A stretch of DNA of 64,000 nt from Naegleria gruberi (lineage: Eukaryota): the NCBI GenBank assembly GCA_000004985.1, contig GG738926.1; one strand, written 5' to 3'. Shown piece after piece: positions 845-26,958 of this stretch; position 1 is the first letter of the stretch, and every line of letters begins with the position of its first letter. The position numbers and the translations under genes are program-made. The notes under the pieces were generated by a model, which ran no database searches, was not told the DNA's origin, and saw nothing but the letters and a program-made list of their open reading frames with translations.

Positions 845-3160
845 TTACTTGCTCTTGAACTTGTTATCAACCTTCAAAGTCACAGATCTGTTAAACACTA
901 ATTGATCATTAGTTGTGTCTTGATCAACAACAAAGAAGCCAACTCTTTCGAATTGGTACTTTTCATAGACGGCACGGTTCTTAGCATCTTGGAAATATGG
1001 GTCAACAAATGCGTTTGGCTTAATAATTTCAGAGTTTGGATTAATATAGTTCAACCATTCATCACCAACTTCATCCAAATCGTCACAAGTGAACAACTTT
1101 TCATAGAGTCTGACTTCAGCCTTCATTGGATCAACACCAGGAGCAGATTGAGACAACCAGTGAATATATGTCTTTGGCTTTTCCTTCTTGTCAAAATCGG
1201 CAGTACAATGCAATTCAACAATCTTACCATTTTCATCCTTAATAACCTTTTCACAATGAATGTTACATGGAGCATATCTCAAACCAACGCTCTTATTTGG
1301 AGCCAAACCATAGTAATCTTCAGAGTCAACTTCTCTAAAGTCAGAGCTTTCAATGTAGAGAACTCTGGAGAGTGGCAATTGACGAGATCCTCTTTCGGCA
1401 AGCTTAGGGTGATTCTTAGCTTCAACATGTTCAACCTTGTTAGCATCATAGTTAGTCAAAACAACCTTAAGTGGTTCCAAAACAGCAAAGACACGGTTAA
1501 CACGTTCATCGAGATCAGTACGGAGGGATTGTTCCAATCTTTCAATTGGAATCAAATTTTCAACACGAGTAACACCAATATCATCACAGAATGATTTGAT
1601 ACCTTCTGGTGTGTAACCTCTTCTTCTCAAACCAGCCAAAGTCAAAACTCTTGGATCGTCCCAAGAACGAATAATCTTTTCCTTAACCAACTTCAAAACC
1701 TTACGCTTGGAAAGCAAAGCAGTTGTAATATTCAATCTACTGAATTCATAAACGTGAGGTCTATATAATTTCAAAGTAGCCAATAACCAATAGTAAGAGT
1801 CACGTCTGTTTTCAAATTCCAATGTACACAAAGAGTGAGTAATATTTTCCAAAGAGTCAACAATACAGTGAGAGAAATCATAAGTTGGATAAATACACCA
1901 TTTGTTTCCTTGATGTGGGTGAGCAACATATTTGATACGATAAGCAACGAAATCTCTCATGTTGTAATTGTCACTGCTCATATCAATCTTGACTCTAAGA
2001 ACAGCAGCACCTTCATCGTAAATACCCATCTTCATTTGTTCGAATCTCTTCAAGTTTTCTTCTGGAGTAGTATTTCTGTACTTTGATTCAATCTTATTTT
2101 CTCTTTGATCGTGAATTTCCTTCTTTGATGAAAAGTCAACATAGGCCTTTCCTTCCTTAATTAATTGAACAGCAAAATCGTACATTTGATCCATGTAATC
2201 ACTAGTGTATGTAATCTTAAATGGCTTGAATCCCATCCATTCCATCATTTCTCTAATAGAATCAAAGTAAATCTTTTCTTCCTTTTCTGGATTTGTGTCA
2301 TCATAACGAAGATATGTGCAACCACCTTCTGACATGGCATAACCAAAAGACAAATTCATGGCCTTGGCGTGACCAATGTGAAGGAATCCGTTTGGTTCAG
2401 GTGGGAAACGTGTCATAATTTTACCACCAGTTTGGTTCTTATGTTGTTCCAATAATTCAGGTGGGTTGACAGCAGTTTCAAGGAAACGAGCATCAAAATT
2501 ATAAGTCTTCTTTTGTGGTTGAGTGGCAACCTTTTCTGTGGTAGTGGCAGTTTTAACAACAGCAACCTTTTCTACTTTCTTTGGTGCTTCTTCTACTGGA
2601 GTATCCTTCAGTTCTTCGGATAATGCTTGGAAGGCCTTTTCAACAACTTGTTTAATAATGTTACCATCGGCAAACTTCAATAATTTAATTTCGTTACGCA
2701 AAGTACCAACAAGTTTACCAACATTGGCTTTTCCAATGGTGTAATATGAAAGCTTGTTGCTTGAAATTTGTCCATTAACTAATTCAGTAACCTTTTCTTC
2801 ATTGACATCAGCACCAACACCACATTCAACTTCAAAATCTTGAATTGGGAGTGGTGTAGTACCAATCTTTTTAGCATACTTGATTGCTTCTTCGACTTGG
2901 ACACCAGTCTTGAGTTTACCTTGGGCAATATATTTAGCAATGATTAATCTATTATCAGCCAAATTATCTGGGATGGATTGGATCAACTTCAAGATGAGTG
3001 GACCACAAGAATAATTAAATTCACTAGACTTGTTTTCCAAAGGAATGTTGACTTCGGTGATGGTACGAAGGAATTTTGTTGTGAGGGCTTCATTCTTGGT
3101 AAGATTGAAAATATCCTTTTCATTCAAACCAACAGCCAACAAGATTGCGTCTCTCTCCAT
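845..3160 (-). CDS. glnS: Glutaminyl-tRNA synthetase (class I, eukaryotic type with N-terminal extension)
   Basis: A 771-aa ORF with a true ATG. It carries the HIGH motif (PEPNGFLHIGHAKA) and class-I catalytic core, a KMSKS-like LSKRK element, an anticodon-binding C-terminal domain and the ~200-aa N-terminal appended domain typical of eukaryotic GlnRS. Confidence 0.9.
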   Translation of the reverse strand: MERDAILLAVGLNEKDIFNLTKNEALTTKFLRTITEVNIPLENKSSEFNYSCGPLILKLIQSIPDNLADNRLIIAKYIAQGKLKTGVQVEEAIKYAKKIGTTPLPIQDFEVECGVGADVNEEKVTELVNGQISSNKLSYYTIGKANVGKLVGTLRNEIKLLKFADGNIIKQVVEKAFQALSEELKDTPVEEAPKKVEKVAVVKTATTTEKVATQPQKKTYNFDARFLETAVNPPELLEQHKNQTGGKIMTRFPPEPNGFLHIGHAKAMNLSFGYAMSEGGCTYLRYDDTNPEKEEKIYFDSIREMMEWMGFKPFKITYTSDYMDQMYDFAVQLIKEGKAYVDFSSKKEIHDQRENKIESKYRNTTPEENLKRFEQMKMGIYDEGAAVLRVKIDMSSDNYNMRDFVAYRIKYVAHPHQGNKWCIYPTYDFSHCIVDSLENITHSLCTLEFENRRDSYYWLLATLKLYRPHVYEFSRLNITTALLSKRKVLKLVKEKIIRSWDDPRVLTLAGLRRRGYTPEGIKSFCDDIGVTRVENLIPIERLEQSLRTDLDERVNRVFAVLEPLKVVLTNYDANKVEHVEAKNHPKLAERGSRQLPLSRVLYIESSDFREVDSEDYYGLAPNKSVGLRYAPCNIHCEKVIKDENGKIVELHCTADFDKKEKPKTYIHWLSQSAPGVDPMKAEVRLYEKLFTCDDLDEVGDEWLNYINPNSEIIKPNAFVDPYFQDAKNRAVYEKYQFERVGFFVVDQDTTNDQLVFNRSVTLKVDNKFKSK

Positions 3161-12188: not shown

Positions 12189-13904
12189 ATGACTCAACAT
12201 GATACGGTAAAAGTTTTGCTGATTGATTTTTTAGATCAGCGAATAGAAACTCAACAATTTCTCCGATGCAAATTCCAACAGCAACAATTAGGAAGAATGA
12301 AATATTTGAAAAGAAGAGAGGAAAATTTGAGGAATTGTAAAGATTGGTTTCCCATTGAATTTGCAAAAGATAAATATTTTGTCATCAACCAAAAGTCCAT
12401 TGCAAGGGCAAAGATCTTTCGTCTACTTTCGGATGAATTAAAGAATGATAACGATGTTATTATTAGCTGCTACTCATATTTCGTTCATTTCAGTGATTAT
12501 TACAATGTTTTGATGAATTTATTGAAATCTAAAGAATTAGCTGAAGAATTTTTGAAACGAAACAAAGTTAGCAATTTTAATTTTGATCCACAAACGTGGA
12601 AAAATACAGAACTTTGTAAAATGTATTTAAGAAATTTGAAATATCCCAGGTCGAATGTTAGGCAATTTGATGATGAATTTATAGTGGAAGCTTCATGGTT
12701 CAATGTTTCTTATTTTAGACATGGATCAGTAGAATTGAGACGAAATAGAGAGGTGGTGCTGAAACTTTGTAAACATAACGGAATGGTGATTCAATATGTT
12801 AATGCAAAATTGAGATTTGATAGAGAAATAATATTGGAAACTCTGAAAAATTGTCCTTCAGCCATTGAGTTTATTCCAAATGAATTGAAATTCGAAAGAG
12901 ATTTAATTAATCAAGTATTTATTCATCACTATAGTGATGAGATCAACCTTGAGGATTTATCAGATGATATTGTATGGTTACGGACCTATTTGAAACTCTT
13001 TGGAATTAATAATATTCCAAGAACATGGTCAAGGAAATATTCGAATAACAAAGAGCTCATGATGGAATATATCAAAGAGAATGGAGATTATTTGAAATTC
13101 GTCTCTATGGAACTGAAAAATGATAAGGAATTAGTTTTGCAAGCTGTGAAAAATTCAGGCCTTGCCATTTACTATGCCTCTGAAGAATTGAAGCGAGATA
13201 GGGAAATAGTTTTGGAGGCAGTTAAGCAGGATGGTACTGCTTACAATTATGTGGCTCCTCATTTCTCTTCTGATAAGGAAATTATCTCATTGGCTCTTTG
13301 CAGAGATTCGAATTTTTTCAATCTTGCATCTGAAAGTTTGAAAAATGATTATGAATTTGTGATGGATATAGTATCAACAAGAGGAATGATATTGAAATTT
13401 CTACCAGAAACACTAATGAATAACAGGACAATTAATTTGGCAGCTATTTTAAATAATGGAAGAGTTATTGAATTTTCTCCTTTCAAACATGATCCAGAAA
13501 TATTGAATCAGGTGGTTAAAGTAGTTCCTTATTATTACTTGAGATTTGTAGATTTATCAATGTTTTCGGATGAAACCTTGATTGAGGCAGTAAGATTTTC
13601 TGAAGATCCTTTTTTAATCACCAAAAGAGCTAACTATTTGGATTTGCTACAACGATCTATTGAATACAATGTGCGTTTGGCATCTTCATTTCCATATGAA
13701 CATTTGACTGAACAACTGGTGTTGAAATTCATTAGAATGGATGGTTCTGTAATCGAATATCATAATATTAAGCGATTCATTCATTCAGACAAATCAAAAT
13801 ATTTCATCGAAGCTGTCAAATCAAATGGATTCTTCACTGAATTCGATCAGGAATTGTATCGACTGAGATTGAGTGAAGAATATCACGGAGCTATCATGCA
13901 CTAA
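12189..13904 (+). CDS. DUF4116 repeat-containing protein
   Basis: 571 aa. It contains at least 6 tandem ~48-aa units of the form ELKNDKELVLQAVKNSGLAIYYASEELKRDREIVLEAVKQDG..., the characteristic protist DUF4116 repeat. Confidence 0.65.
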   Translation: MTQHDTVKVLLIDFLDQRIETQQFLRCKFQQQQLGRMKYLKRREENLRNCKDWFPIEFAKDKYFVINQKSIARAKIFRLLSDELKNDNDVIISCYSYFVHFSDYYNVLMNLLKSKELAEEFLKRNKVSNFNFDPQTWKNTELCKMYLRNLKYPRSNVRQFDDEFIVEASWFNVSYFRHGSVELRRNREVVLKLCKHNGMVIQYVNAKLRFDREIILETLKNCPSAIEFIPNELKFERDLINQVFIHHYSDEINLEDLSDDIVWLRTYLKLFGINNIPRTWSRKYSNNKELMMEYIKENGDYLKFVSMELKNDKELVLQAVKNSGLAIYYASEELKRDREIVLEAVKQDGTAYNYVAPHFSSDKEIISLALCRDSNFFNLASESLKNDYEFVMDIVSTRGMILKFLPETLMNNRTINLAAILNNGRVIEFSPFKHDPEILNQVVKVVPYYYLRFVDLSMFSDETLIEAVRFSEDPFLITKRANYLDLLQRSIEYNVRLASSFPYEHLTEQLVLKFIRMDGSVIEYHNIKRFIHSDKSKYFIEAVKSNGFFTEFDQELYRLRLSEEYHGAIMH

Positions 13905-16170: not shown

Positions 16171-17046
16171 ATGTCCGTTAAGAAGATAGTGCCTGTGAAT
16201 TCGGGCCAACAACAACATGTCGATACATCTTCATCATTTGCCGTTACGAGTCATAAAGTTCTCAGTCGTTTATCAAATATTAAGGCCTCCGAAGAACCTC
16301 TCACATCGGATGGTGGCAATAATTTTCACACAGGACGAGGATTCTGCGTAGACTCACTCTGTTCACTCAAGACAATGCTCATCTCATTTCTGGTGATCTC
16401 TCTCTTTATAACATGCCTCATCATTTGGATCATTTTAATGATTTTGTCTTCACAACAAGTTGAAATTTCAATGGGAATTGCCTCAATAGTCGTGTGGTGC
16501 ACATTCGTCGTATCTTTGATAGTATTTTCCATTCTGACATCTCTGGGAGTGTCCACTCTGATAAGGAAACCCATCACGGAATTAACTCGACAACTCTTTC
16601 GCATGAAAACATTAAGGTTTGACTCTGTGAAAAAGCTCAAATCCATTTTGTATGAATTCATTCCACTATTCACTGTGTTTTTCGATTTGAATAATTTAAT
16701 GAAGGATATTAGACCTTTCATTCCCGAATCCATCACTCGGCAGTCGGATGATGATGAAGCTGAACTTGAGGAACAACAAAGGGAAGAAGAACGAAAACAA
16801 TTACACATGATGCAATTGAGAAAATCCATCTTTTCTGCATCATCTGCTGGAATACCAACTCCTTCCATTGCTAATTCATCAGCAGCAAACAATGGTGGAG
16901 GTGGAGGATTGGCCATTCCACCCTCCATTCAACCTCCTCCAGCTGTGGCCACAATGACCATCAATGGACTTCCTCCTCCAAATCCAAATGTATCCGGCAC
17001 AGGATCTTCATCACCATCAATCCAATGCTTACAGTTTCCTCTGTGA
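16171..17046 (+). CDS. N-terminal membrane part of a putative class III nucleotidyl-cyclase-like protein (two TM helices + low-complexity linker)
   Basis: 291 aa with a true ATG. Two TM helices (LISFLVISLFITCLIIWIILMIL and IVVWCTFVVSLIVFSILTSLGV), then a Q/E/S/G/P-rich linker. The 3' end overlaps the next ORF in another frame, so this is probably the same gene (see next feature and findings). Confidence 0.45.
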   Translation: MSVKKIVPVNSGQQQHVDTSSSFAVTSHKVLSRLSNIKASEEPLTSDGGNNFHTGRGFCVDSLCSLKTMLISFLVISLFITCLIIWIILMILSSQQVEISMGIASIVVWCTFVVSLIVFSILTSLGVSTLIRKPITELTRQLFRMKTLRFDSVKKLKSILYEFIPLFTVFFDLNNLMKDIRPFIPESITRQSDDDEAELEEQQREEERKQLHMMQLRKSIFSASSAGIPTPSIANSSAANNGGGGGLAIPPSIQPPPAVATMTINGLPPPNPNVSGTGSSSPSIQCLQFPL

Positions 17047-18167
17047 ACAAATTAAGAAAGGCAGTGAGTAAGGTAGGAGTTGTGGTTGCACTCTCAAAGT
17101 CAAGAAAATCCTTTGCTTTGGAAGGGACACATGCTGTAAATCATCATGATTCTGTTAGTGATCATGGTAGTGTAAATAATTCAGTAGGTGCAGCAGCTGT
17201 TAAGGACGCTAATGCAGAGAGAACAGTTGGATTTTCACCTCAGCTGTCGAACAATTTAGGCCTAGGACTAACCTCACACATTACAACAATAATTATCATT
17301 CAATTTAGAAATTTTGATGGTAAATCGTATCCGAATACTGCTGATTTGCTTGCTGTATTTACATTACTCTTCCAAAAGGTTCAAAGTGCCAGCAGACAAT
17401 ATAAAGGAAGATGTTCGATTATTACACCAAAAGTTCTAATGGTTAGTTTTGATGTTGGAATGAATGTTGAAAGAAATGCTCTACTCTGTGCACTGCAGTT
17501 GGATAAACAAATGCAATCAGTCAATTCACAACTTGAAGAACAAGTCAACTTGCCAAAAATTGAGTATGGCATTGGAGTTTCTCGATCAGAATGTCTCGTA
17601 GGTAATGTTGGTACTTCAGCAGTGAGATTTGCAGCATTAATTGGTGCATGCTCGAGTAATGCATTGAGATTGGCTGCATTGTGTGCCTATTTTGGAACCT
17701 CAATTTTAACAGATGAATCCTTGGCATTGCCATTACAAACAGGATTCATCACAAGAGCTGTGCATTTCATGCAGAAGAAATCAATATTTGATAGTGAGAA
17801 ATTGAGTTTGGATGATGGAGGCGATGATCGTCAAGTGATTTATCAATTACTTGCTGAGAATCGTGTAAATGATGACGAATGGCTCTATGAATTGGAACAA
17901 CAGGAAAATAACAACAAATATAGAGAATTCGATCAGGCATTTGGGTTGTTGAGAGGAGATGTAAATATTGAACTGCTAGGTGAGATTTGTGAAGTGTTTG
18001 GAACCTATTCCACAAAGAATCCTCAAGATAAGGTTGTTTCCTTACTGTATACTCAATTGTCTGATTATTTAAAGCTAGATACGAAAGAAGTGGAAAGTGC
18101 TGTGAGGTCGTTTAGCTTGGAAAAGACTGATATTCCACTCCATACAGATCCATCATTTATTCTGTAA
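17025..18167 (+). CDS. Class III adenylyl/guanylyl cyclase homology domain (continuation of 16171..17046 via frameshift or unresolved intron)
   Basis: ITTIIIIQFRNFDG...ITPKVLMVSFDVGM...KIEYGIGVSRSECLVGNVGTSAVRFAALIGACSSNALRLAALCAYFGTSILTDES matches the CHD order: metal-Asp motifs, then [RK]IG[IV]..G....G.VG, then the N.A.R transition-state pair. The first codon in the track is not a credible independent start. Confidence 0.5.
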   Translation: MLTVSSVNKLRKAVSKVGVVVALSKSRKSFALEGTHAVNHHDSVSDHGSVNNSVGAAAVKDANAERTVGFSPQLSNNLGLGLTSHITTIIIIQFRNFDGKSYPNTADLLAVFTLLFQKVQSASRQYKGRCSIITPKVLMVSFDVGMNVERNALLCALQLDKQMQSVNSQLEEQVNLPKIEYGIGVSRSECLVGNVGTSAVRFAALIGACSSNALRLAALCAYFGTSILTDESLALPLQTGFITRAVHFMQKKSIFDSEKLSLDDGGDDRQVIYQLLAENRVNDDEWLYELEQQENNNKYREFDQAFGLLRGDVNIELLGEICEVFGTYSTKNPQDKVVSLLYTQLSDYLKLDTKEVESAVRSFSLEKTDIPLHTDPSFIL

Positions 18168-22738: not shown

Positions 22739-24120
22739 TTACAGAATGAATAGAGGACTACTTACAATAGGAGGACCTAACAGGTCTGGTTTCAAGTCCT
22801 TTCTCATATTTACAAATAATTTAACAATTTCTAAATCTCCTTTCGAACAAAGCTCATAAAATACGAAACCTCTATTAACATCCAAGTCTTTTCTAGAAAG
22901 TAATTTAGTGATTACTTCAAATTTGGTTTGGTTACTCAATTTGATGGCGCTTTTCAATATTAACCCATCTTCAATATTCAAATCAAGATTTGTATTCGTA
23001 AGGAAACGTGAAAGAATTTCAGAATTTTCTAAACAATAAGCAAGTGGACAACCTTGATTGATATCAATGTTTGGATTATTCAGAAATAGCTGCACCATTT
23101 CAAGATTACCAGATTTACAAACTTGAACAAACGATTGACATTCGTTTGGATTAGTTTTTGAGTTTTCCAACAATATTCCAATAATGTCCATACTATGATT
23201 ATCATCCAGAGCTATTCTCAGTGGTGTTATGTGCTCAATCTTATCCAAACTATCTCTCAAAATATGTGGAAACTTTTCAAATAGGTTCGTCTCTGAAACT
23301 TCCTTAATTCCAAAATTAGTATCAATATTTGGCTTTTTCAAAATCAATTTCACAATGTGTTTGCTCGCCTTCTTCATTGCCAGAAACAGTATCGACCTGC
23401 CATGTAATTCTGAAACACTCGATGTCCCAAATGTCAAATATCCTGCATATCCCTTATTAATATCAATGTCACTCCTTCCCATCAAAATCTCAGCAGTTGA
23501 ATAATGACCATTCTCAATAGCCACATACAAAGCTGTCTTGGCACATGGAAAAATCAAATCACCTTCAGATTTATGCTTCTTCTCATGAATTTTCAAATCA
23601 CTTTTCGATTTTCTAAATTCGTCTTGTCCCTTCTTTACATCATTCTTTTGGAAATTTAAAATTTTTGTAATTTTAAATGGAAAATTACTTACAATCTGAA
23701 TAATGGTCAAATTTACAAATTAAAATTCACTAAAATTGACAAGAAACTTACTCTTTCAATTTGAATTGAAAATTTGTTCACTTGAATGTGATTCGAATTA
23801 TTGAACGAAAGTAGCAGCTTGACAATTTCATCGTGACCTCTTTTACTGGCCAAATAGAGTGGAGTTTTGGTTGAATAGGCATTATCACATCCCAAATTAA
23901 TATCCAAATCAGGACATTCTAATAATTTATGAATAATCGAAAGGTCACCTCCGAAATGTTTAATTGCTTCGTATAAAAGCGAATGACCTTTATCATTTAG
24001 TTGGTTGATGATGTGGTTTAATTTCATGTGGGAAAGTTGTTCCACCTTTCCTTGTTGAATGAGTTCGAATGCATGATGCTTTCGGTAGGAATCTAATAGA
24101 AACATTTTTTTTAATGTCAA
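22739..24120 (-). CDS. Ankyrin-repeat protein (2 exons resolved, possible additional 3' exons)
   Basis: Exon 1 ~23751..24105 has its true ATG at 24105 (MFLLDSYRKHH...); the track starts at a TTG. A GTAAGT donor is at ~23745-23750 and the acceptor ...ccaaaag| is at ~23655. Exon 2 runs down to 22739. It contains multiple ANK repeats (TPLYLASKRGHDEIVKLLL; TALYVAIENGHYSTAEILM; NPNIDINQGCPLAYCLENS...). A GTAAGT at ~22770-22775 just before the in-frame stop suggests splicing to downstream exons, including the ORF 22359..22583. Confidence 0.7.
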
Positions 24121-24598
24121 AAAGAAATGAGGTTCAATAATGGAAAGTATGGTTGCTGATTGGTTTCGTTTTGGTAATTTTGTAGTTTATTCAAAGTCTT
24201 ACAGTTCCACAGCTTCACAAATATGTTTCTTTACAAAAGGTTAGTTTTATTCGAAACCATTCTTATTGTAAACTAACAAAAACCGTAGTTGATTACACAA
24301 ATCATAAACTACACATTGCTAATCACAAATCAACAAATAAACTGTCGTTTGACGATTAATACAATGTACGAAGAGATCTACAAGTTTAAATGACACGATA
24401 TTCTATTGGAAACTTAGTTTTCGAAACTTTAACACACTATTCCAAAATGTTGAAATTTACTAATAGAACACAATTTCTTTAATCATCAAGGTAACTTTCG
24501 TATAAAACCAGCTCACATTAGCTAAGCTTTCGAATAACATTGTTAACAAAAAATAACGTAAAACATGCAAGGAAACAAATTGATTATTTGCCTCTCTG

Positions 24599-25444
24599 TT
24601 GTGTTTATTCCTCTTTTTCATCCAAATGTCAGCTGCCACTTGGCCTTCCCAAGTTGTCAACATTACCAGTTGGAAATTAACTCTTCCAATAGGTGAAATC
24701 GGTGATCCCATTGAAATCTACCAACCAACTCTCAACCAATACATTCTAAATCCTTATTTTGGAGTTGGACCAAACAAGACATCTATTCGATTCAGAGTTG
24801 TCATTACAAACGAAACTGTTACAACTTCTGGATCTAATTATCCAAGAAGTGAGCTTAGAGAAATGGATTCTGTTAATCCTAGTTCTGTAAAAGCTAGTTG
24901 GAATACTAGTGTTGGTGTTCATACGATGATTATTGATCAAACTATTACGAAACTTCCTGCTATTCGAAACAAATTAATTGCTGGTCAAATTCATGATGCT
25001 GACGAATTTATTGTGACCATAAATTTGGAGGGCACTAAACTCTACATTAATGTGCAAGATGTTGGAACCACAACCATCACAAAAAATTACATTTTGGGAA
25101 CAAGATTCCAAATTAAGATTCAAGCCAAAAATGGAACTACAAGTATTTATTACAATGATATGAATACCCCAGTTTATTCCGTTTCCAAGACCTATAAGGG
25201 AGCTTACTTTAAGGCAGGTTGTTATTCGCAATCCAATTGCGCCTACGAAGGAACTTCTTGTGGAAAGTCCAGTAATTATGCTGAAGTGTTAATTCACAAT
25301 TTGACAGTTACTCATGAATATCCAAAAACTGGAAGAAAGGGGATGAAATGGTTTGGAGAAACAAATGATGTACCTGCTGTGAGATTTGGATTGGTCAATT
25401 TGGTCATTGTTTGTTTAGTGTTTGCATTTATGGCACTTTTTTAA
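24599..25444 (+). CDS. Polysaccharide lyase family 7 (alginate-lyase-2 fold) protein, secreted, with C-terminal hydrophobic (GPI/TM-like) tail
   Basis: PL7 signature residues occur in the canonical order: RSELRE, QIH (LIAGQIHDAD), YFKAGCYSQS. This is followed by a C-terminal hydrophobic VRFGLVNLVIVCLVFAFMALF. The track start is a TTG and the first in-frame ATG is at 24626. An ATG at 24565 encodes a good signal peptide (MQGNKLIICLSVVFIPLF) but sits in the +1 frame. Confidence 0.7.
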   Translation: MCLFLFFIQMSAATWPSQVVNITSWKLTLPIGEIGDPIEIYQPTLNQYILNPYFGVGPNKTSIRFRVVITNETVTTSGSNYPRSELREMDSVNPSSVKASWNTSVGVHTMIIDQTITKLPAIRNKLIAGQIHDADEFIVTINLEGTKLYINVQDVGTTTITKNYILGTRFQIKIQAKNGTTSIYYNDMNTPVYSVSKTYKGAYFKAGCYSQSNCAYEGTSCGKSSNYAEVLIHNLTVTHEYPKTGRKGMKWFGETNDVPAVRFGLVNLVIVCLVFAFMALF

Positions 25445-25461
25445 TAAAAATTGAAGAGATA

Positions 25462-26958
25462 TTATTCGAAAGTAAATCCCAAAGATTCAGTTTGTGTAAC
25501 AATTGAAACATCACTAAATATTCCCTTTTCATAACAAGATTTCACTTTCTTTGCCATTAATTCAGCCTTCGAATATTCTTCCTTATTGAACTTCCAATAG
25601 AAAAATGCAAACTTTTTGTGTTGTTCTTGCCACATCAAACAATCGATTTCGAATACTTTTCCATAAGGATAGCATACAGGTGAAGTGAATTTGTACGGAT
25701 AGGTCATGTGCTTATTTCTATCATCCACATCAATTGAACTGTCATTGTAAACTGTTACCAATAAACAGTCAACTTGCAAATATTTTACAATCTTTCGTTG
25801 AGTTTCAATGCAAGATTCTTCTTTAGCATTTTCTTCTTTATCTAATTGAATTTGTTCTTTTCTTTCATCCTCTTGAGTTTCTTCTTGAGTTTCGTCTTCA
25901 CTTTCTTCCTCACTTTCTTCTTCAATTTCTTCTTCTTCTTCACTCTCATCTTCTAAACTTTCTTCCTCATCATCTTCAGATTCCACTCCACGAGCTTTAA
26001 TAATATTTCCTCTTTGAATTTTAACAATTCCATAACCATCAGTAGTTGCCACAATTCCATCATGTCCAAAATCAACATCAATACATCTGACAGAATTTGA
26101 TAGCTCAATTTGCTTGAACATGTAAAAGTTTGGATAAACTCCAGAAGATTTCGAAACACAATATTGAGAAGCATTCTCACCACAAACATAAATTGTGCCA
26201 CTATTCGAAAGTGCAACAACTCTCCTATAAAATCCAACAACCTTAATAAAGAAAGGTTTAGGGCACTTTCTTTGGAGCTTGATTTCACATTCGCCAAGAT
26301 TCACAACGGTTTGCACATTTTTCTGACCTCTTGCAGCAGCTCCATCATAATTATATCCTAAACTGTAAAGGTTTCCATCAGAAAGTATTAGAAATAGAGC
26401 TGGCTCATTTGCTCCCATGCTTATGATGTCCAAATTTCTAGCCTCTTCAACTTCAAACAATGGACATTGTGTTTTGGTATTGTAAAGTTTCATTTGCATG
26501 ATTCCAATTTGTGTGAAATTCTTTCCAAATTGAGAATAATTATTTAGACGAAAGAGAGGATCCATTAAGTTGGTGTTATTGAGAGAAACAACAAGTAATC
26601 TCTTGTAAACTGTTGATAGAAAGAGAAATCCTTGCGAATAGGCCATGTGTTTGACATCTTTCCATGAAAATGTTTGATTTCCATTCGATTCGATAAAAGT
26701 TTCGAATACTTGTTTGATTTTTAAATCAATGACGAATGGACCGGGACCTTTAACGATGAAGCATTTGATGTCATTCGCGTCTTTATCTGTATTGCATCCT
26801 AGACAAATTGTAACTCCACTCTTTTTGCAATCCGAAACCGCTTGGTCAATTCGCAAGTTGGCAAGATTAGGATAATGTTCAGAAGAAAGATAATTCTCTT
26901 GCATGTAACCCTTATAGGAAGGGAATGGTACAACTCCAGCATAGCTAGGATGAGACAT
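25462..26958 (-). CDS. Hypothetical protein with weak RCC1-like beta-propeller repeats and an acidic E/D-rich tract
   Basis: 498 aa with a true ATG. It has repeated G-rich beta-strand motifs (LSDGNLYSLGYNYDGAAARGQ; LSNSGTIYVCGENASQYC; HDGIVATTDGYGIV). A ~50-aa poly-E/D run sits in the coding sequence at ~25860-25990. No firm domain. Confidence 0.45.
   Translation of the reverse strand: MSHPSYAGVVPFPSYKGYMQENYLSSEHYPNLANLRIDQAVSDCKKSGVTICLGCNTDKDANDIKCFIVKGPGPFVIDLKIKQVFETFIESNGNQTFSWKDVKHMAYSQGFLFLSTVYKRLLVVSLNNTNLMDPLFRLNNYSQFGKNFTQIGIMQMKLYNTKTQCPLFEVEEARNLDIISMGANEPALFLILSDGNLYSLGYNYDGAAARGQKNVQTVVNLGECEIKLQRKCPKPFFIKVVGFYRRVVALSNSGTIYVCGENASQYCVSKSSGVYPNFYMFKQIELSNSVRCIDVDFGHDGIVATTDGYGIVKIQRGNIIKARGVESEDDEEESLEDESEEEEEIEEESEEESEDETQEETQEDERKEQIQLDKEENAKEESCIETQRKIVKYLQVDCLLVTVYNDSSIDVDDRNKHMTYPYKFTSPVCYPYGKVFEIDCLMWQEQHKKFAFFYWKFNKEEYSKAELMAKKVKSCYEKGIFSDVSIVTQTESLGFTFE

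What the first reader, a model, noticed from the sequence alone, without database searches (positions are those of the whole stretch)
24565..25444. PL7 (alginate-lyase-2 fold) polysaccharide lyase in an amoebozoan genome, with signal peptide in the wrong frame
The ORF carries the three catalytic-groove signatures of PL7 lyases in the right order and spacing (RSELRE ... QIH ... YFKAG[V/C]Y) plus a C-terminal hydrophobic tail. It is intronless and sits between unrelated eukaryotic genes, so it is a candidate horizontal acquisition from a bacterium (or a fast-evolving eukaryotic PL7-fold protein). Such an enzyme would suit a bacterivore degrading biofilm or capsule polysaccharide. An ATG at 24565 encodes a textbook signal peptide (MQGNKLIICLSVVFIPLF) but lies 34 nt upstream, out of frame (+1), and runs into a stop. 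This is either a 1-nt indel in the assembly or a recent pseudogenising frameshift.
Basis: partly seen in the sequence, partly recalled or inferred. Interest (0 to 1): 0.6.

Follow-up and report, generated by a model that had tools for sequence, protein, structure and literature searches.

The report
Frameshifted PL7 lyase gene in Naegleria
This is a real bacterial-type alginate-lyase (PL7) gene in the amoeboflagellate Naegleria gruberi, an unannotated fourth family member whose export signal is knocked out of frame by an 8-base deletion, so it is interesting mainly as a tidy but not unprecedented case of gene transfer into a eukaryote.

Summary
ORF 24599-25444 (+) is a genuine PL7 polysaccharide lyase: Pfam PF08787 at 117 bits, PDB 1UAI at E 2.6e-51, a confident beta-jelly-roll model, and all three catalytic motifs invariant. 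The start codon and signal peptide at 24565 are indeed out of frame.

Two points of the interpretation are wrong.
- The host is Naegleria gruberi (Heterolobosea, Discoba), not an amoebozoan. The window's GlnRS is 100% identical to the N. gruberi protein.
- The frameshift is not a 1-nt homopolymer slip. It is an 8-nt deletion (TCACAACG, between 24588 and 24589) relative to an intact, 98.5% identical allele in an environmental contig (ERZ929261).

The locus is an apparently unannotated fourth paralog, beside XP_002678504, XP_002676505 and XP_002672853. The Naegleria copies form one clade with 100% NJ bootstrap. Their nearest relatives are bacterial sequences at 40-51% identity. Codon usage is host-like, which fits one old bacterial acquisition followed by duplication.

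The predicted architecture is signal peptide, PL7 domain, linker, then a C-terminal hydrophobic (GPI-like or TM) tail. dN/dS against the intact allele is 0.06, so the disruption is recent, heterozygous or an assembly artefact.

PL7 acquisition by eukaryotes is already documented in diatoms and fungi. Interest is modest.

The parts
24565..24588 (+). Start codon and first 8 codons of the signal peptide (MQGNKLII), in frame 1
   Evidence: Identical to the first 8 codons of the intact 295-aa allele P0001/L001.
24588..24589 (+). Junction of the 8-nt deletion. TCACAACG is present in L001 between these two bases. The deletion shifts the reading frame by +1.
   Evidence: Pairwise DNA alignment A1, columns 280-287. 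The paralog P0002 has LTF where L001 has TTF, so the longer state is ancestral.
24590..24634 (+). Rest of the signal peptide (ASLLCLFLFFIQMSAA), now in frame 2. The predicted cleavage is after SAA.
   Evidence: Translation and identity to P0001 residues 12-27. Hydropathy peaks at 2-3.4. The cleavage site is inferred from small residues at -3 and -1.
24626..24628 (+). First ATG in the PL7 frame. It would give a 272-aa product with no signal peptide. It lies inside the out-of-frame ORF that starts at 24565.
   Evidence: Direct reading. This exact 272-aa product is absent from the 15-billion-protein collection.
24694..24696 (+). Stop codon of the 43-codon out-of-frame ORF that begins at the true start codon
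   Evidence: ORF 24565..24696.
24635..25318 (+). PL7 (alginate lyase 2) catalytic domain with a beta-jelly-roll fold
   Evidence: PF08787 at 117 bits. 1UAI at E 2.6e-51. AF2 mean pLDDT 90.9. Foldseek to 1UAI gives target-normalised TM 0.93 and rmsd 1.7 A.
24845..24862 (+). RSELRE motif (SA3, RXEXR): the Arg that neutralises the substrate carboxylate
   Evidence: R83, E85, L86, R87 and E88 are invariant in A2 and A3.
24986..24994 (+). QIH motif (SA5): Gln plus the catalytic His
   Evidence: Q130 and H132 are invariant. The link between QIH and polyG/polyMG preference is a rule with known exceptions (PMC8618178).
25205..25237 (+). YFKAGCYSQSN motif (SA4): the catalytic Tyr
   Evidence: Y203, F204, K205, G207, Y209, Q211 and N213 are invariant.
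25319..25390 (+). Low-complexity linker, predicted disordered. It is absent from bacterial homologues.
   Evidence: pLDDT below 50 for model residues 236-252. The alignment shows the extension only in Naegleria sequences. Both non-synonymous differences from L001 fall here.
25391..25444 (+). C-terminal 17-residue hydrophobic tail that runs to the last residue, plus the stop codon. It is a candidate GPI-attachment signal or membrane anchor.
   Evidence: Hydropathy 2.6-3.5. It is predicted helical. Equivalent tails occur in the paralogs P0002, P0003 and P0252.

Best explanation
The locus is a fourth, apparently unannotated member of a small PL7 polysaccharide-lyase family in Naegleria gruberi.

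Origin (inferred). The family stems from one old transfer of a bacterial PL7 gene of the ALY-1/AlyPG type into the Naegleria lineage. The gene then duplicated into at least four copies on different scaffolds. The copies also acquired eukaryotic targeting parts.

Predicted architecture, N-terminus to C-terminus.
- An N-terminal ER signal peptide.
- The lyase domain.
- A short disordered linker.
- A C-terminal hydrophobic tail.
The tail would tether the enzyme to the outer face of the plasma or phagosomal membrane, by GPI attachment or as a membrane anchor.

Chemistry (from solved PL7 structures). The enzyme should cleave polyuronates by beta-elimination. Arg83 and Gln130 would neutralise the C5 carboxylate, His132 would abstract the proton, and Tyr203 would protonate the leaving oxygen. 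The most likely substrates are G-containing bacterial alginates, or related uronans, in prey biofilms, capsules or cyst coats.

State of this copy. In this assembly an 8-nt deletion inside the signal-peptide coding region separates the start codon from the enzyme frame. As printed, this allele cannot make a secreted enzyme. It is most likely a very recent loss-of-function allele, possibly one haplotype of a heterozygous clone or a change fixed in the axenic laboratory strain.

Shown: family membership, fold, motifs, host identity, the deletion, and purifying selection. Inferred: substrate, localisation, the pseudogene status of the allele, and the direction and age of the transfer.
For: PL7 identity:
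- Pfam PF08787 at 117.3 bits.
- PDB 1UAI at E 2.6e-51 and 5ZQI at E 9.6e-49.
- AF2 mean pLDDT 90.9. Foldseek top hits are 1UAI and 5ZQI, with target-normalised TM 0.93-0.94.
- The catalytic motifs are invariant.

Host identity:
- The GlnRS ORF is 100% identical to N. gruberi XP_002669489.1. N. fowleri is 80% identical.
- The neighbouring genes are eukaryotic.

Family and origin:
- Three annotated N. gruberi paralogs are 55-66% identical. Bacterial hits are 52% identical or less.
- The Naegleria clade is recovered in 200/200 and 300/300 NJ bootstraps.
- The nearest prokaryotes are 40-51% identical and come from several phyla.
- GC3 is 0.285 and the RSCU correlation with pooled neighbouring ORFs is 0.89, inside the neighbours' own range of 0.80-0.96.

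The deletion:
- Alignment to L001 shows the 8-nt gap. L001 encodes the intact MQGNKLIITTFASLLCLFLFFIQMSAA|TWPSQ.
- Two further indels of 8 and 10 nt lie in the non-coding flanks of the same 1.2 kb. Indels of this size are therefore ordinary differences between these two strains.

Selection:
- There are 9 synonymous and 2 non-synonymous differences. dN/dS is 0.061, with p = 4.5e-5 against neutrality.

Annotation gap:
- No N. gruberi protein at 90% identity or more appeared.
- The exact 272-aa product is not in the collection.

Anchor:
- C-terminal hydrophobic tails are present in all four family members.

Heterozygosity:
- N. gruberi is reported to be heterozygous (PMC9928731).
Against: - No read-level data were available. 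An assembly or haplotype-choice artefact cannot be excluded.
- The ORF has no other defect, and dN/dS of 0.06 shows no relaxation of selection. If this is a pseudogene it is very young.
- Substrate specificity is not predictable from QIH alone (PMC8618178). PL7 also includes glucuronan lyases such as 7NDE.
- No GPI or signal-peptide predictor was run. The sequence around the putative omega site is not textbook.
- The donor lineage is unresolved. The tree is NJ only and unrooted.
- Absence from N. fowleri, Willaertia and Acrasis is inferred only from their absence among the 120 best hits.
Confidence: 0.75

Rival explanations
1. The gene is intact in the organism. The 8-nt gap is an assembly or consensus error, or the assembler chose a rare or defective haplotype. 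The real product would be the 295-aa secreted, anchored lyase.
For: - Apart from the gap, the ORF is perfect.
- dN/dS against the intact allele is 0.061.
- The intact form exists in a 98.5% identical strain.
- N. gruberi is reported as heterozygous.
Against: - The missing octamer is non-repetitive, with only 1 nt of flanking microhomology. It is not a homopolymer, so it is not a typical base-calling error.
- Two other indels of 8-10 nt separate the same two sequences in non-coding DNA. That fits genuine strain differences.
Confidence: 0.25
2. The frameshifted allele is still used. Leaky scanning or re-initiation at ATG 24626 would yield a signal-less 272-aa lyase. It would be cytosolic, or tail-anchored through its C-terminal hydrophobic segment.
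For: - ATG 24626 is in frame and lies just 3 codons before the predicted mature N-terminus.
- The ORF is otherwise intact.
- A C-terminal hydrophobic tail could in principle act as a tail anchor.
Against: - ATG 24565 comes first and has an A at -3. Its 43-codon ORF overlaps and runs past 24626, so re-initiation there is not possible and only leaky scanning remains (direct reading).
- The conserved Cys214-Cys221 pair, the secretory architecture of all paralogs and an extracellular substrate all argue that a cytosolic enzyme would be useless.
Confidence: 0.07
3. The PL7 ORF is bacterial contamination or a very recent insertion, not a resident Naegleria gene.
For: The protein is about 50% identical to bacterial enzymes.
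Against: - It lies 17 nt from an RCC1-like gene and next to an ankyrin gene on a scaffold that carries GlnRS, a formin and kinases.
- GC3 and codon usage are host-like.
- Three paralogs sit on other large N. gruberi scaffolds of 417-507 kb.
- The same gene, with the same flanks, occurs in an independent environmental assembly.
Confidence: 0.01
4. The family is an anciently and vertically inherited eukaryotic PL7-fold protein, not a horizontal acquisition.
For: - A second, unidentified protist (JGI sample 3300062347) carries three PL7 genes with eukaryotic-type signal peptides in clearly eukaryotic contexts.
- In the NJ tree that clade falls next to the Naegleria clade.
Against: - That sister relationship has only 88/300 bootstrap support.
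- Identity to bacterial enzymes of several phyla is 40-51%. That is as close as to the other protist.
- No named N. fowleri, Willaertia or Acrasis homologue appears among the 120 best hits, although those proteomes are in the database.
- The great majority of the 1,921 hits are prokaryotic or metagenomic.
Confidence: 0.05

Closest known systems
ALY-1 / AlyPG polyguluronate lyase of Corynebacterium sp. (PDB 1UAI) and AlgAT5 (PDB 5ZQI), bacterial single-domain PL7 enzymes
   Same: Same fold: target-normalised TM 0.93-0.94 and rmsd 1.7-2.0 A. Sequence E-values are 2.6e-51 and 9.6e-49. They have the same RSELRE, QIH and YFKAGxYxQ motifs, the same Cys pair and the same domain length.
   Different: The Naegleria protein has a eukaryotic-type signal peptide and two short insertions (TNE and SV regions). 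It also has a roughly 40-residue C-terminal linker plus hydrophobic tail that the bacterial enzymes lack. Its activity is untested.
Annotated N. gruberi paralogs XP_002678504.1 (NAEGRDRAFT_66146), XP_002676505.1 (NAEGRDRAFT_68135) and XP_002672853.1 (NAEGRDRAFT_71919)
   Same: Same species and same clade, with 100% bootstrap. They are 55-66% identical. They share the signal peptide, PL7 domain and C-terminal hydrophobic tail layout.
   Different: This copy has no matching protein record and carries the 8-nt frameshift. XP_002676505.1 has a long Asn-rich linker. The model for XP_002672853.1 is truncated compared with its 291-aa counterpart P0252.
[quoted passage not shown]
   Same: A bacterium-to-protist transfer of a PL7 gene was followed by duplication. 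Signal peptides are retained or acquired, and one sub-family carries a C-terminal membrane anchor.
   Different: It is an independent event. The diatom genes group with Vibrio sequences and mostly carry CBM32. The diatom has 91 genes against 4 here. The diatom is a marine alga-degrader, while Naegleria is a freshwater and soil bacterivore. No CBM is present in the Naegleria genes.
Fungal PL7 lyases (Paradendryphiella salina PL7A/PL7C; Trichoderma parareesei PL7A glucuronan lyase, PDB 7NDE)
   Same: They are eukaryotic secreted PL7 enzymes with the same fold.
   Different: They are only 15-24% identical in structural alignment, so they belong to a distant PL7 branch. Their substrate preferences differ (polyM, glucuronan).

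Membership tests
CAZy PL7 / Pfam PF08787 Alginate_lyase2 | Profile match above the curated threshold across the whole domain | tested here: met
   117.3 bits against a cutoff of 29.7, profile positions 1-225 of 225.
CAZy PL7 / Pfam PF08787 Alginate_lyase2 | Beta-jelly-roll (beta-sandwich) fold with a substrate cleft | tested here: met
   AF2 mean pLDDT 90.9. In the Foldseek ranking, ranks 1-44 are alginate or glucuronan lyases, nearly all PL7. The best hit is 1UAI, with target-normalised TM 0.93 and rmsd 1.7 A. This rests on a predicted structure, not a solved one.
CAZy PL7 / Pfam PF08787 Alginate_lyase2 | SA3 motif RXEXR | tested here: met
   RSELR at residues 83-87, invariant in 83 sequences. 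Motif definition from PMC8618178.
CAZy PL7 / Pfam PF08787 Alginate_lyase2 | SA5 motif QXH (catalytic His) | tested here: met
   QIH at residues 130-132. Q and H are invariant.
CAZy PL7 / Pfam PF08787 Alginate_lyase2 | SA4 motif YXKAGXYXQ (catalytic Tyr) | tested here: met
   YFKAGCYSQ at residues 203-211. Y, K, G, Y and Q are invariant.
CAZy PL7 / Pfam PF08787 Alginate_lyase2 | Beta-eliminative cleavage of alginate or another polyuronate | not testable with these tools
   This needs an enzyme assay. QIH suggests polyG or polyMG, but the rule has exceptions.
Secreted / surface-anchored eukaryotic enzyme | In-frame N-terminal signal peptide | tested here: not met
   In the window the ATG at 24565 is in another frame and a TGA at 24581-24583 closes the PL7 frame. 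The feature is met in the allelic contig L001 and in the paralogs.
Secreted / surface-anchored eukaryotic enzyme | GPI-attachment signal (small omega residues, polar spacer, terminal hydrophobic stretch) or a TM anchor | tested here: inconclusive
   A terminal 17-residue hydrophobic stretch ends at the C-terminus, preceded by TNDVPAVRFG. No dedicated predictor was available, and omega+2 is not clearly a small residue.
Bacterium-to-eukaryote horizontal gene transfer | Physically linked to bona fide host genes, with host-like composition | tested here: met
   for the host genes. GC3 and RSCU.
Bacterium-to-eukaryote horizontal gene transfer | Recipient sequences are monophyletic and nested among prokaryotic sequences, with an identifiable donor | tested here: inconclusive
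   Monophyly is 100%. All but one neighbouring group are prokaryotic or metagenomic. The tree is unrooted NJ and the donor phylum is unresolved: Patescibacteria, Gammaproteobacteria MAGs, Myxococcota and Actinomycetota are all at 40-51% identity.
Bacterium-to-eukaryote horizontal gene transfer | Absent from the recipient's close relatives | tested here: inconclusive
   No named N. fowleri, Willaertia or Acrasis protein is among the best 120 hits, although these proteomes are in the database. Their genomes could not be searched directly.
Pseudogene | Disabling lesion | tested here: met
   The 8-nt deletion separates the start codon and half the signal peptide from the enzyme frame.
Pseudogene | Relaxed selection or further decay | tested here: not met
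   dN/dS is 0.061 and there are no internal stops. If it is a pseudogene, it is very recent.
Pseudogene | Lesion confirmed in reads, and no expression | not testable with these tools
   No reads or RNA-seq were available. N. gruberi is not in the gene-position index.

The most novel reading that the evidence does not exclude
Naegleria gruberi and its close relatives may carry a lineage-specific, membrane-tethered PL7 lyase family, captured from bacteria and used at the cell surface or in the phagosome. Its role would be to strip alginate-type exopolysaccharide from prey biofilms or Azotobacter-type cysts. Under this reading, the 8-nt deletion in the sequenced strain is a loss-of-function allele that arose or was tolerated because NEG-M has been kept axenically, without bacterial prey. 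A second, unidentified protist (JGI 3300062347) may have acquired the same enzyme type in parallel.
Probability: 0.2. Interest if true: 0.5.

Novelty: new member of a known kind. Interest (0 to 1): 0.3.

Why it matters
- It adds an unrecorded gene, or pseudo-allele, to the N. gruberi gene catalogue.
- It corrects the taxonomic reading: the host is a heterolobosean, not an amoebozoan.
- It documents a small PL7 family of bacterial origin in a bacterivorous amoeboflagellate, with eukaryotic targeting parts added. My literature searches found no paper that discusses it.
- If the enzymes are active on bacterial alginate, they would be a concrete molecular tool by which a protist grazer attacks biofilm matrix. 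They would also be a freshwater and soil counterpart to the diatom case (PMC11960938).
- The frameshift gives a simple, testable example of a recent loss-of-function allele in a laboratory strain.
- None of this overturns current understanding.

Tried and rejected
1. A 1-nt homopolymer miscall is rejected. The difference from the intact allele is an 8-nt non-repetitive deletion upstream of the T runs.

2. Rescue by a mini-intron is rejected. The only AG is at 24631-24632. GT sites at 24598, 24601 and 24603 would give introns of 35, 32 and 30 nt. None restores the frame, since the length must equal 1 mod 3. All would remove the hydrophobic core, and the intact allele needs no intron (direct reading).

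3. N-glycosylation sequons as a sign of adaptation to a eukaryotic host are rejected. The window protein has 6 sequons, and the bacterial-like hits average 5.05 with a maximum of 13.

4. A giant-virus or phage route finds no support. IMG/VR relatives are 44% identical or less, no closer than bacteria.

5. A common eukaryotic clade with the unidentified protist of JGI 3300062347 is suggested by NJ topology. It is recovered in only 88/300 bootstraps, so I do not claim it.

6. I could not identify that protist. Its MGRN1-like E3 ligase has only one named hit, Willaertia magna at 29% identity. The Naegleria-like GlnRS P0123 comes from a different sample.

7. The search for further alleles in JGI metagenomes found nothing, by protein scan or by exact 27-mer.

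8. The N. gruberi annotation around the locus could not be retrieved. The genome is not in the gene-position index.

9. There is no second PL7 copy in the window (tblastn).

10. Supplements of the Naegleria pangenome paper contain no mention of alginate or PF08787.
Full report
**1. Observation**

- ORF 24599-25444 (+) has 281 codons.
- In another frame, 34 nt upstream, an ATG at 24565 opens a 43-codon ORF that stops at 24696.
- In the long ORF's frame, a TGA at 24581-24583 prevents any extension upstream. The first in-frame ATG is at 24626.
- The translated ORF matches Pfam PF08787 (Alginate_lyase2) over the entire profile, at E 1.2e-33 and 117.3 bits against a cutoff of 29.7.
- It also matches solved PL7 enzymes: 1UAI polyguluronate lyase at E 2.6e-51, 5ZQI AlgAT5 at E 9.6e-49, and A1-II', PA1167 and others more weakly.
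- An AlphaFold2 model built from an 83-sequence alignment has mean pLDDT 90.9. Its best structural matches are the same PL7 structures: 1UAI with target-normalised TM 0.93 and rmsd 1.7 A, and 5ZQI with 0.94.
- The three PL7 signature regions are RSELRE at 24845-24862, QIH at 24986-24994 and YFKAGCYSQ at 25205-25231. All three, and a Cys214-Cys221 pair, are invariant across the alignments. The motif definitions are from PMC8618178.

Membership of PL7 is therefore established as far as sequence and predicted fold can take it.

**2. Whose genome**

The neighbours are eukaryotic. They include ankyrin-repeat, RCC1-like, formin FH2/FH3, BCS1-type AAA, DUF4116, BTB, RGS and EGF-kinase genes and glutaminyl-tRNA synthetase.

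The GlnRS ORF (845-3160, minus strand) is 100% identical over all 771 residues to the N. gruberi protein XP_002669489.1. That protein lies on a 174,974-bp scaffold. N. fowleri is 80% identical, Willaertia 79% and Acrasis 65%.

The window is therefore Naegleria gruberi, a heterolobosean (Discoba), not an amoebozoan.

**3. The frameshift**

The best database hit to the lyase is a 295-aa protein, P0001, at 99% identity. It comes from a 1,186-bp contig of an ENA metagenome assembly (ERZ929261, run ERR1078381).

Aligning that contig (L001) with the window gives about 98.5% identity. L001 contains TCACAACG between window positions 24588 and 24589, and the window lacks it. With the octamer present, the reading frame runs from the ATG through MQGNKLIITTFASLLCLFLFFIQMSAA|TWPSQ into the lyase domain.

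Three points follow.
- The paralog XP_002678504.1 has ...VVLTFAVICLFF... at the corresponding place. The longer state is therefore ancestral and the window carries a derived deletion.
- The octamer is not repetitive, and only a single T of microhomology flanks it. The homopolymer-miscall idea is not supported.
- The same 1.2-kb alignment shows two other indels of 8 and 10 nt in the non-coding flanks. Indels of this size are normal differences between these two strains.

A mini-intron cannot restore the frame. The candidate GT...AG spans are 35, 32 and 30 nt, none equal to 1 mod 3.

As printed, ribosomes starting at 24565 (A at -3) make a 43-residue peptide. The ATG at 24626 lies inside that ORF. 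It could be reached only by leaky scanning, and it would give a lyase with no signal peptide.

**4. Is it decaying?**

Across the 284 shared codons, the window and L001 differ by 9 synonymous and 2 non-synonymous substitutions.
- dS is 0.049, dN is 0.003 and dN/dS is 0.061.
- The binomial p against neutrality is 4.5e-5.
- Both replacements lie in the C-terminal linker.
- There are no internal stops.

The gene has been under strong purifying selection for essentially all the time since the two strains diverged. The deletion is therefore very recent, or confined to one haplotype, or an artefact. N. gruberi is reported to be heterozygous (PMC9928731). I could not examine reads.

**5. Family and origin**

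After P0001, the next hits are three annotated N. gruberi proteins on other large scaffolds:
- XP_002678504.1, 66% identical, 299 aa.
- XP_002676505.1, 57% identical, 424 aa.
- XP_002672853.1, 54% identical, 247 aa.

No N. gruberi protein record corresponds to the window locus. No hit at 90% identity or more carries that name, and the exact 272-aa product is absent from the 15-billion-sequence collection. This is apparently an unannotated fourth paralog.

All further hits are 52% identical or less. Where named, they are bacterial: Candidatus Levy-, Roizman-, Gottesman-, Davies-, Shapiro- and Moranbacteria, and Pendulispora.

A scan of one genome per prokaryotic species gives 40-51% identity to several groups:
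- Patescibacteria.
- Uncultured Gammaproteobacteria MAGs.
- Myxococcota.
- Many Actinomycetota, such as Streptomyces, Saccharothrix and Catellatospora.

In an NJ tree of 121 sequences over 222 columns, the five Naegleria sequences form a clade in 200/200 and 300/300 bootstraps. The window plus P0001 is sister to XP_002678504.1 in 171/200.

The lyase gene's GC3 (0.285) and codon usage (RSCU r = 0.89) fall inside the range of the neighbouring ORFs. Only one copy is present in the window.

The simplest reading is one old acquisition from a bacterium followed by duplication within the Naegleria lineage. The donor cannot be named.

**6. A second protist**

The group placed next to the Naegleria clade (P0022, P0044, P0054) comes from three contigs of a single JGI sample, 3300062347. 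The contigs have 33% GC and unmistakably eukaryotic neighbours:
- protein kinases, F-box and metacaspase genes;
- guanylate cyclase and AP-5 sigma;
- RGS, START, P450, LIM and Kelch genes.

These proteins have eukaryote-style signal peptides but no C-terminal tail. Their sister relationship to Naegleria has only 88/300 bootstrap support. Common ancestry and parallel acquisition both remain open. The organism could not be identified. One MGRN1-like protein has Willaertia at 29% identity as its only named hit.

**7. Architecture and likely mechanism**

Compared with bacterial homologues, the Naegleria proteins carry a roughly 40-residue C-terminal extension. It consists of two parts.
- A linker predicted to be disordered, with pLDDT below 50.
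- A 17-residue hydrophobic segment that ends at the last residue.

Equivalent tails are present in XP_002678504.1 and XP_002676505.1, the latter after a long Asn-rich spacer. One is also present in P0252. P0252 is the 291-aa counterpart of XP_002672853.1, found in the same ERR1078381 sample.

This layout suggests a secreted enzyme tethered to the membrane, either GPI-anchored or with a C-terminal TM anchor. It would face the outside or the phagosome lumen. That is inference, because no predictor or experiment was available.

The chemistry can be taken from solved PL7 enzymes. Arg and Gln neutralise the uronate carboxylate, His abstracts H5 and Tyr protonates the glycosidic oxygen.

The closest characterised relative, 1UAI, is a polyG lyase. 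QIH is usually associated with polyG or polyMG preference, but there are documented exceptions, and PL7 also contains glucuronan lyases (7NDE). For a soil and freshwater bacterivore, the plausible substrates are bacterial alginates or related polyuronates in biofilms, capsules or cyst coats.

**8. Comparison with what is known**

Acquisition of PL7 genes by eukaryotes is documented.
- The diatom Nitzschia sing1 acquired PL7 from marine bacteria. The family then expanded, and one sub-family has a signal peptide and a C-terminal TM domain (PMC11960938).
- Marine fungi such as Paradendryphiella carry PL7 (PMC6710412).

I found no paper that links Naegleria with PL7 or alginate lyase. The three annotated paralogs are nevertheless in public databases with the Pfam domain assigned.

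The finding is thus a new member of a known kind: a known enzyme family, a known evolutionary route, a previously undiscussed host lineage and an unrecorded, frame-shifted copy.

**9. Verdict**

PL7, horizontal origin and a real frameshift all stand. The host taxon was wrong, the nature of the lesion was wrong, and the gene is not a lone recent arrival.

- The claim that this is a PL7 gene of N. gruberi is about as certain as sequence and predicted fold allow (no separate score given).
- My confidence that the printed allele is genuinely non-functional for secretion, rather than an assembly or haplotype artefact, is about 0.6.
- Interest is 0.3.

Noticed in passing
L002:8001-8720, L003:10001-10732, L004:5930-6661 (JGI sample 3300062347): An unidentified AT-rich protist (33% GC, gene-dense, eukaryotic neighbours) carries at least three PL7 paralogs. 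They have eukaryotic-type signal peptides but no C-terminal anchor. They may be a second, independent eukaryotic PL7 family, or may share ancestry with the Naegleria one (NJ bootstrap 88/300).
   Followed up: partly
L116:3001-3876 / P0252 versus XP_002672853.1 (P0004): The N. gruberi NEG-M model XP_002672853.1 (247 aa) ends abruptly with ...TDTSFVEIVYGNI. Its counterpart at 90% identity or more in ERR1078381 is 291 aa and continues through the last beta-strands, a linker and a hydrophobic tail. The NEG-M gene model is probably mis-predicted, or that locus is also damaged.
   Followed up: partly
window 22739-24120 (-): Two adjacent ankyrin-repeat ORFs (22739-23710 and 23713-24120) lie on the same strand in different frames. 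This could be an intron or another frameshift in the gene immediately upstream of the lyase.
   Followed up: no
window 16171-18167 (+): Two overlapping same-strand ORFs (16171-17046 and 17025-18167) have no Pfam match. They may be one gene split by an intron or a frameshift.
   Followed up: no
window 24316-24564 and 25445-25500 versus L001: Besides the coding deletion, the NEG-M sequence and the environmental strain differ by an 8-nt indel just upstream of the ATG (about 24548-24560). They also differ by a 10-nt indel (TAGGGTTACC, present only in L001) 17 nt after the stop codon.
   Followed up: yes
L005-L035 (IMG/VR contigs): 31 phage-like viral contigs encode PL7 homologues at 25-44% identity. 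They are presumably depolymerases or prophage cargo, and none is closer to Naegleria than the bacterial genes are.
   Followed up: no
L037, L038 (uncultured Gammaproteobacteria MAG contigs of 243 and 291 kb): Two uncultured gammaproteobacterial MAGs are among the closest prokaryotic PL7 relatives, at 49-50% identity. I did not check whether they are amoeba-associated lineages.
   Followed up: no
window 12189-13904 (+): This ORF is a 571-aa protein made of six DUF4116 repeats (E 2.7e-85). From my own knowledge, untested here, this family is strongly expanded in Naegleria, which would fit the host assignment.
   Followed up: no
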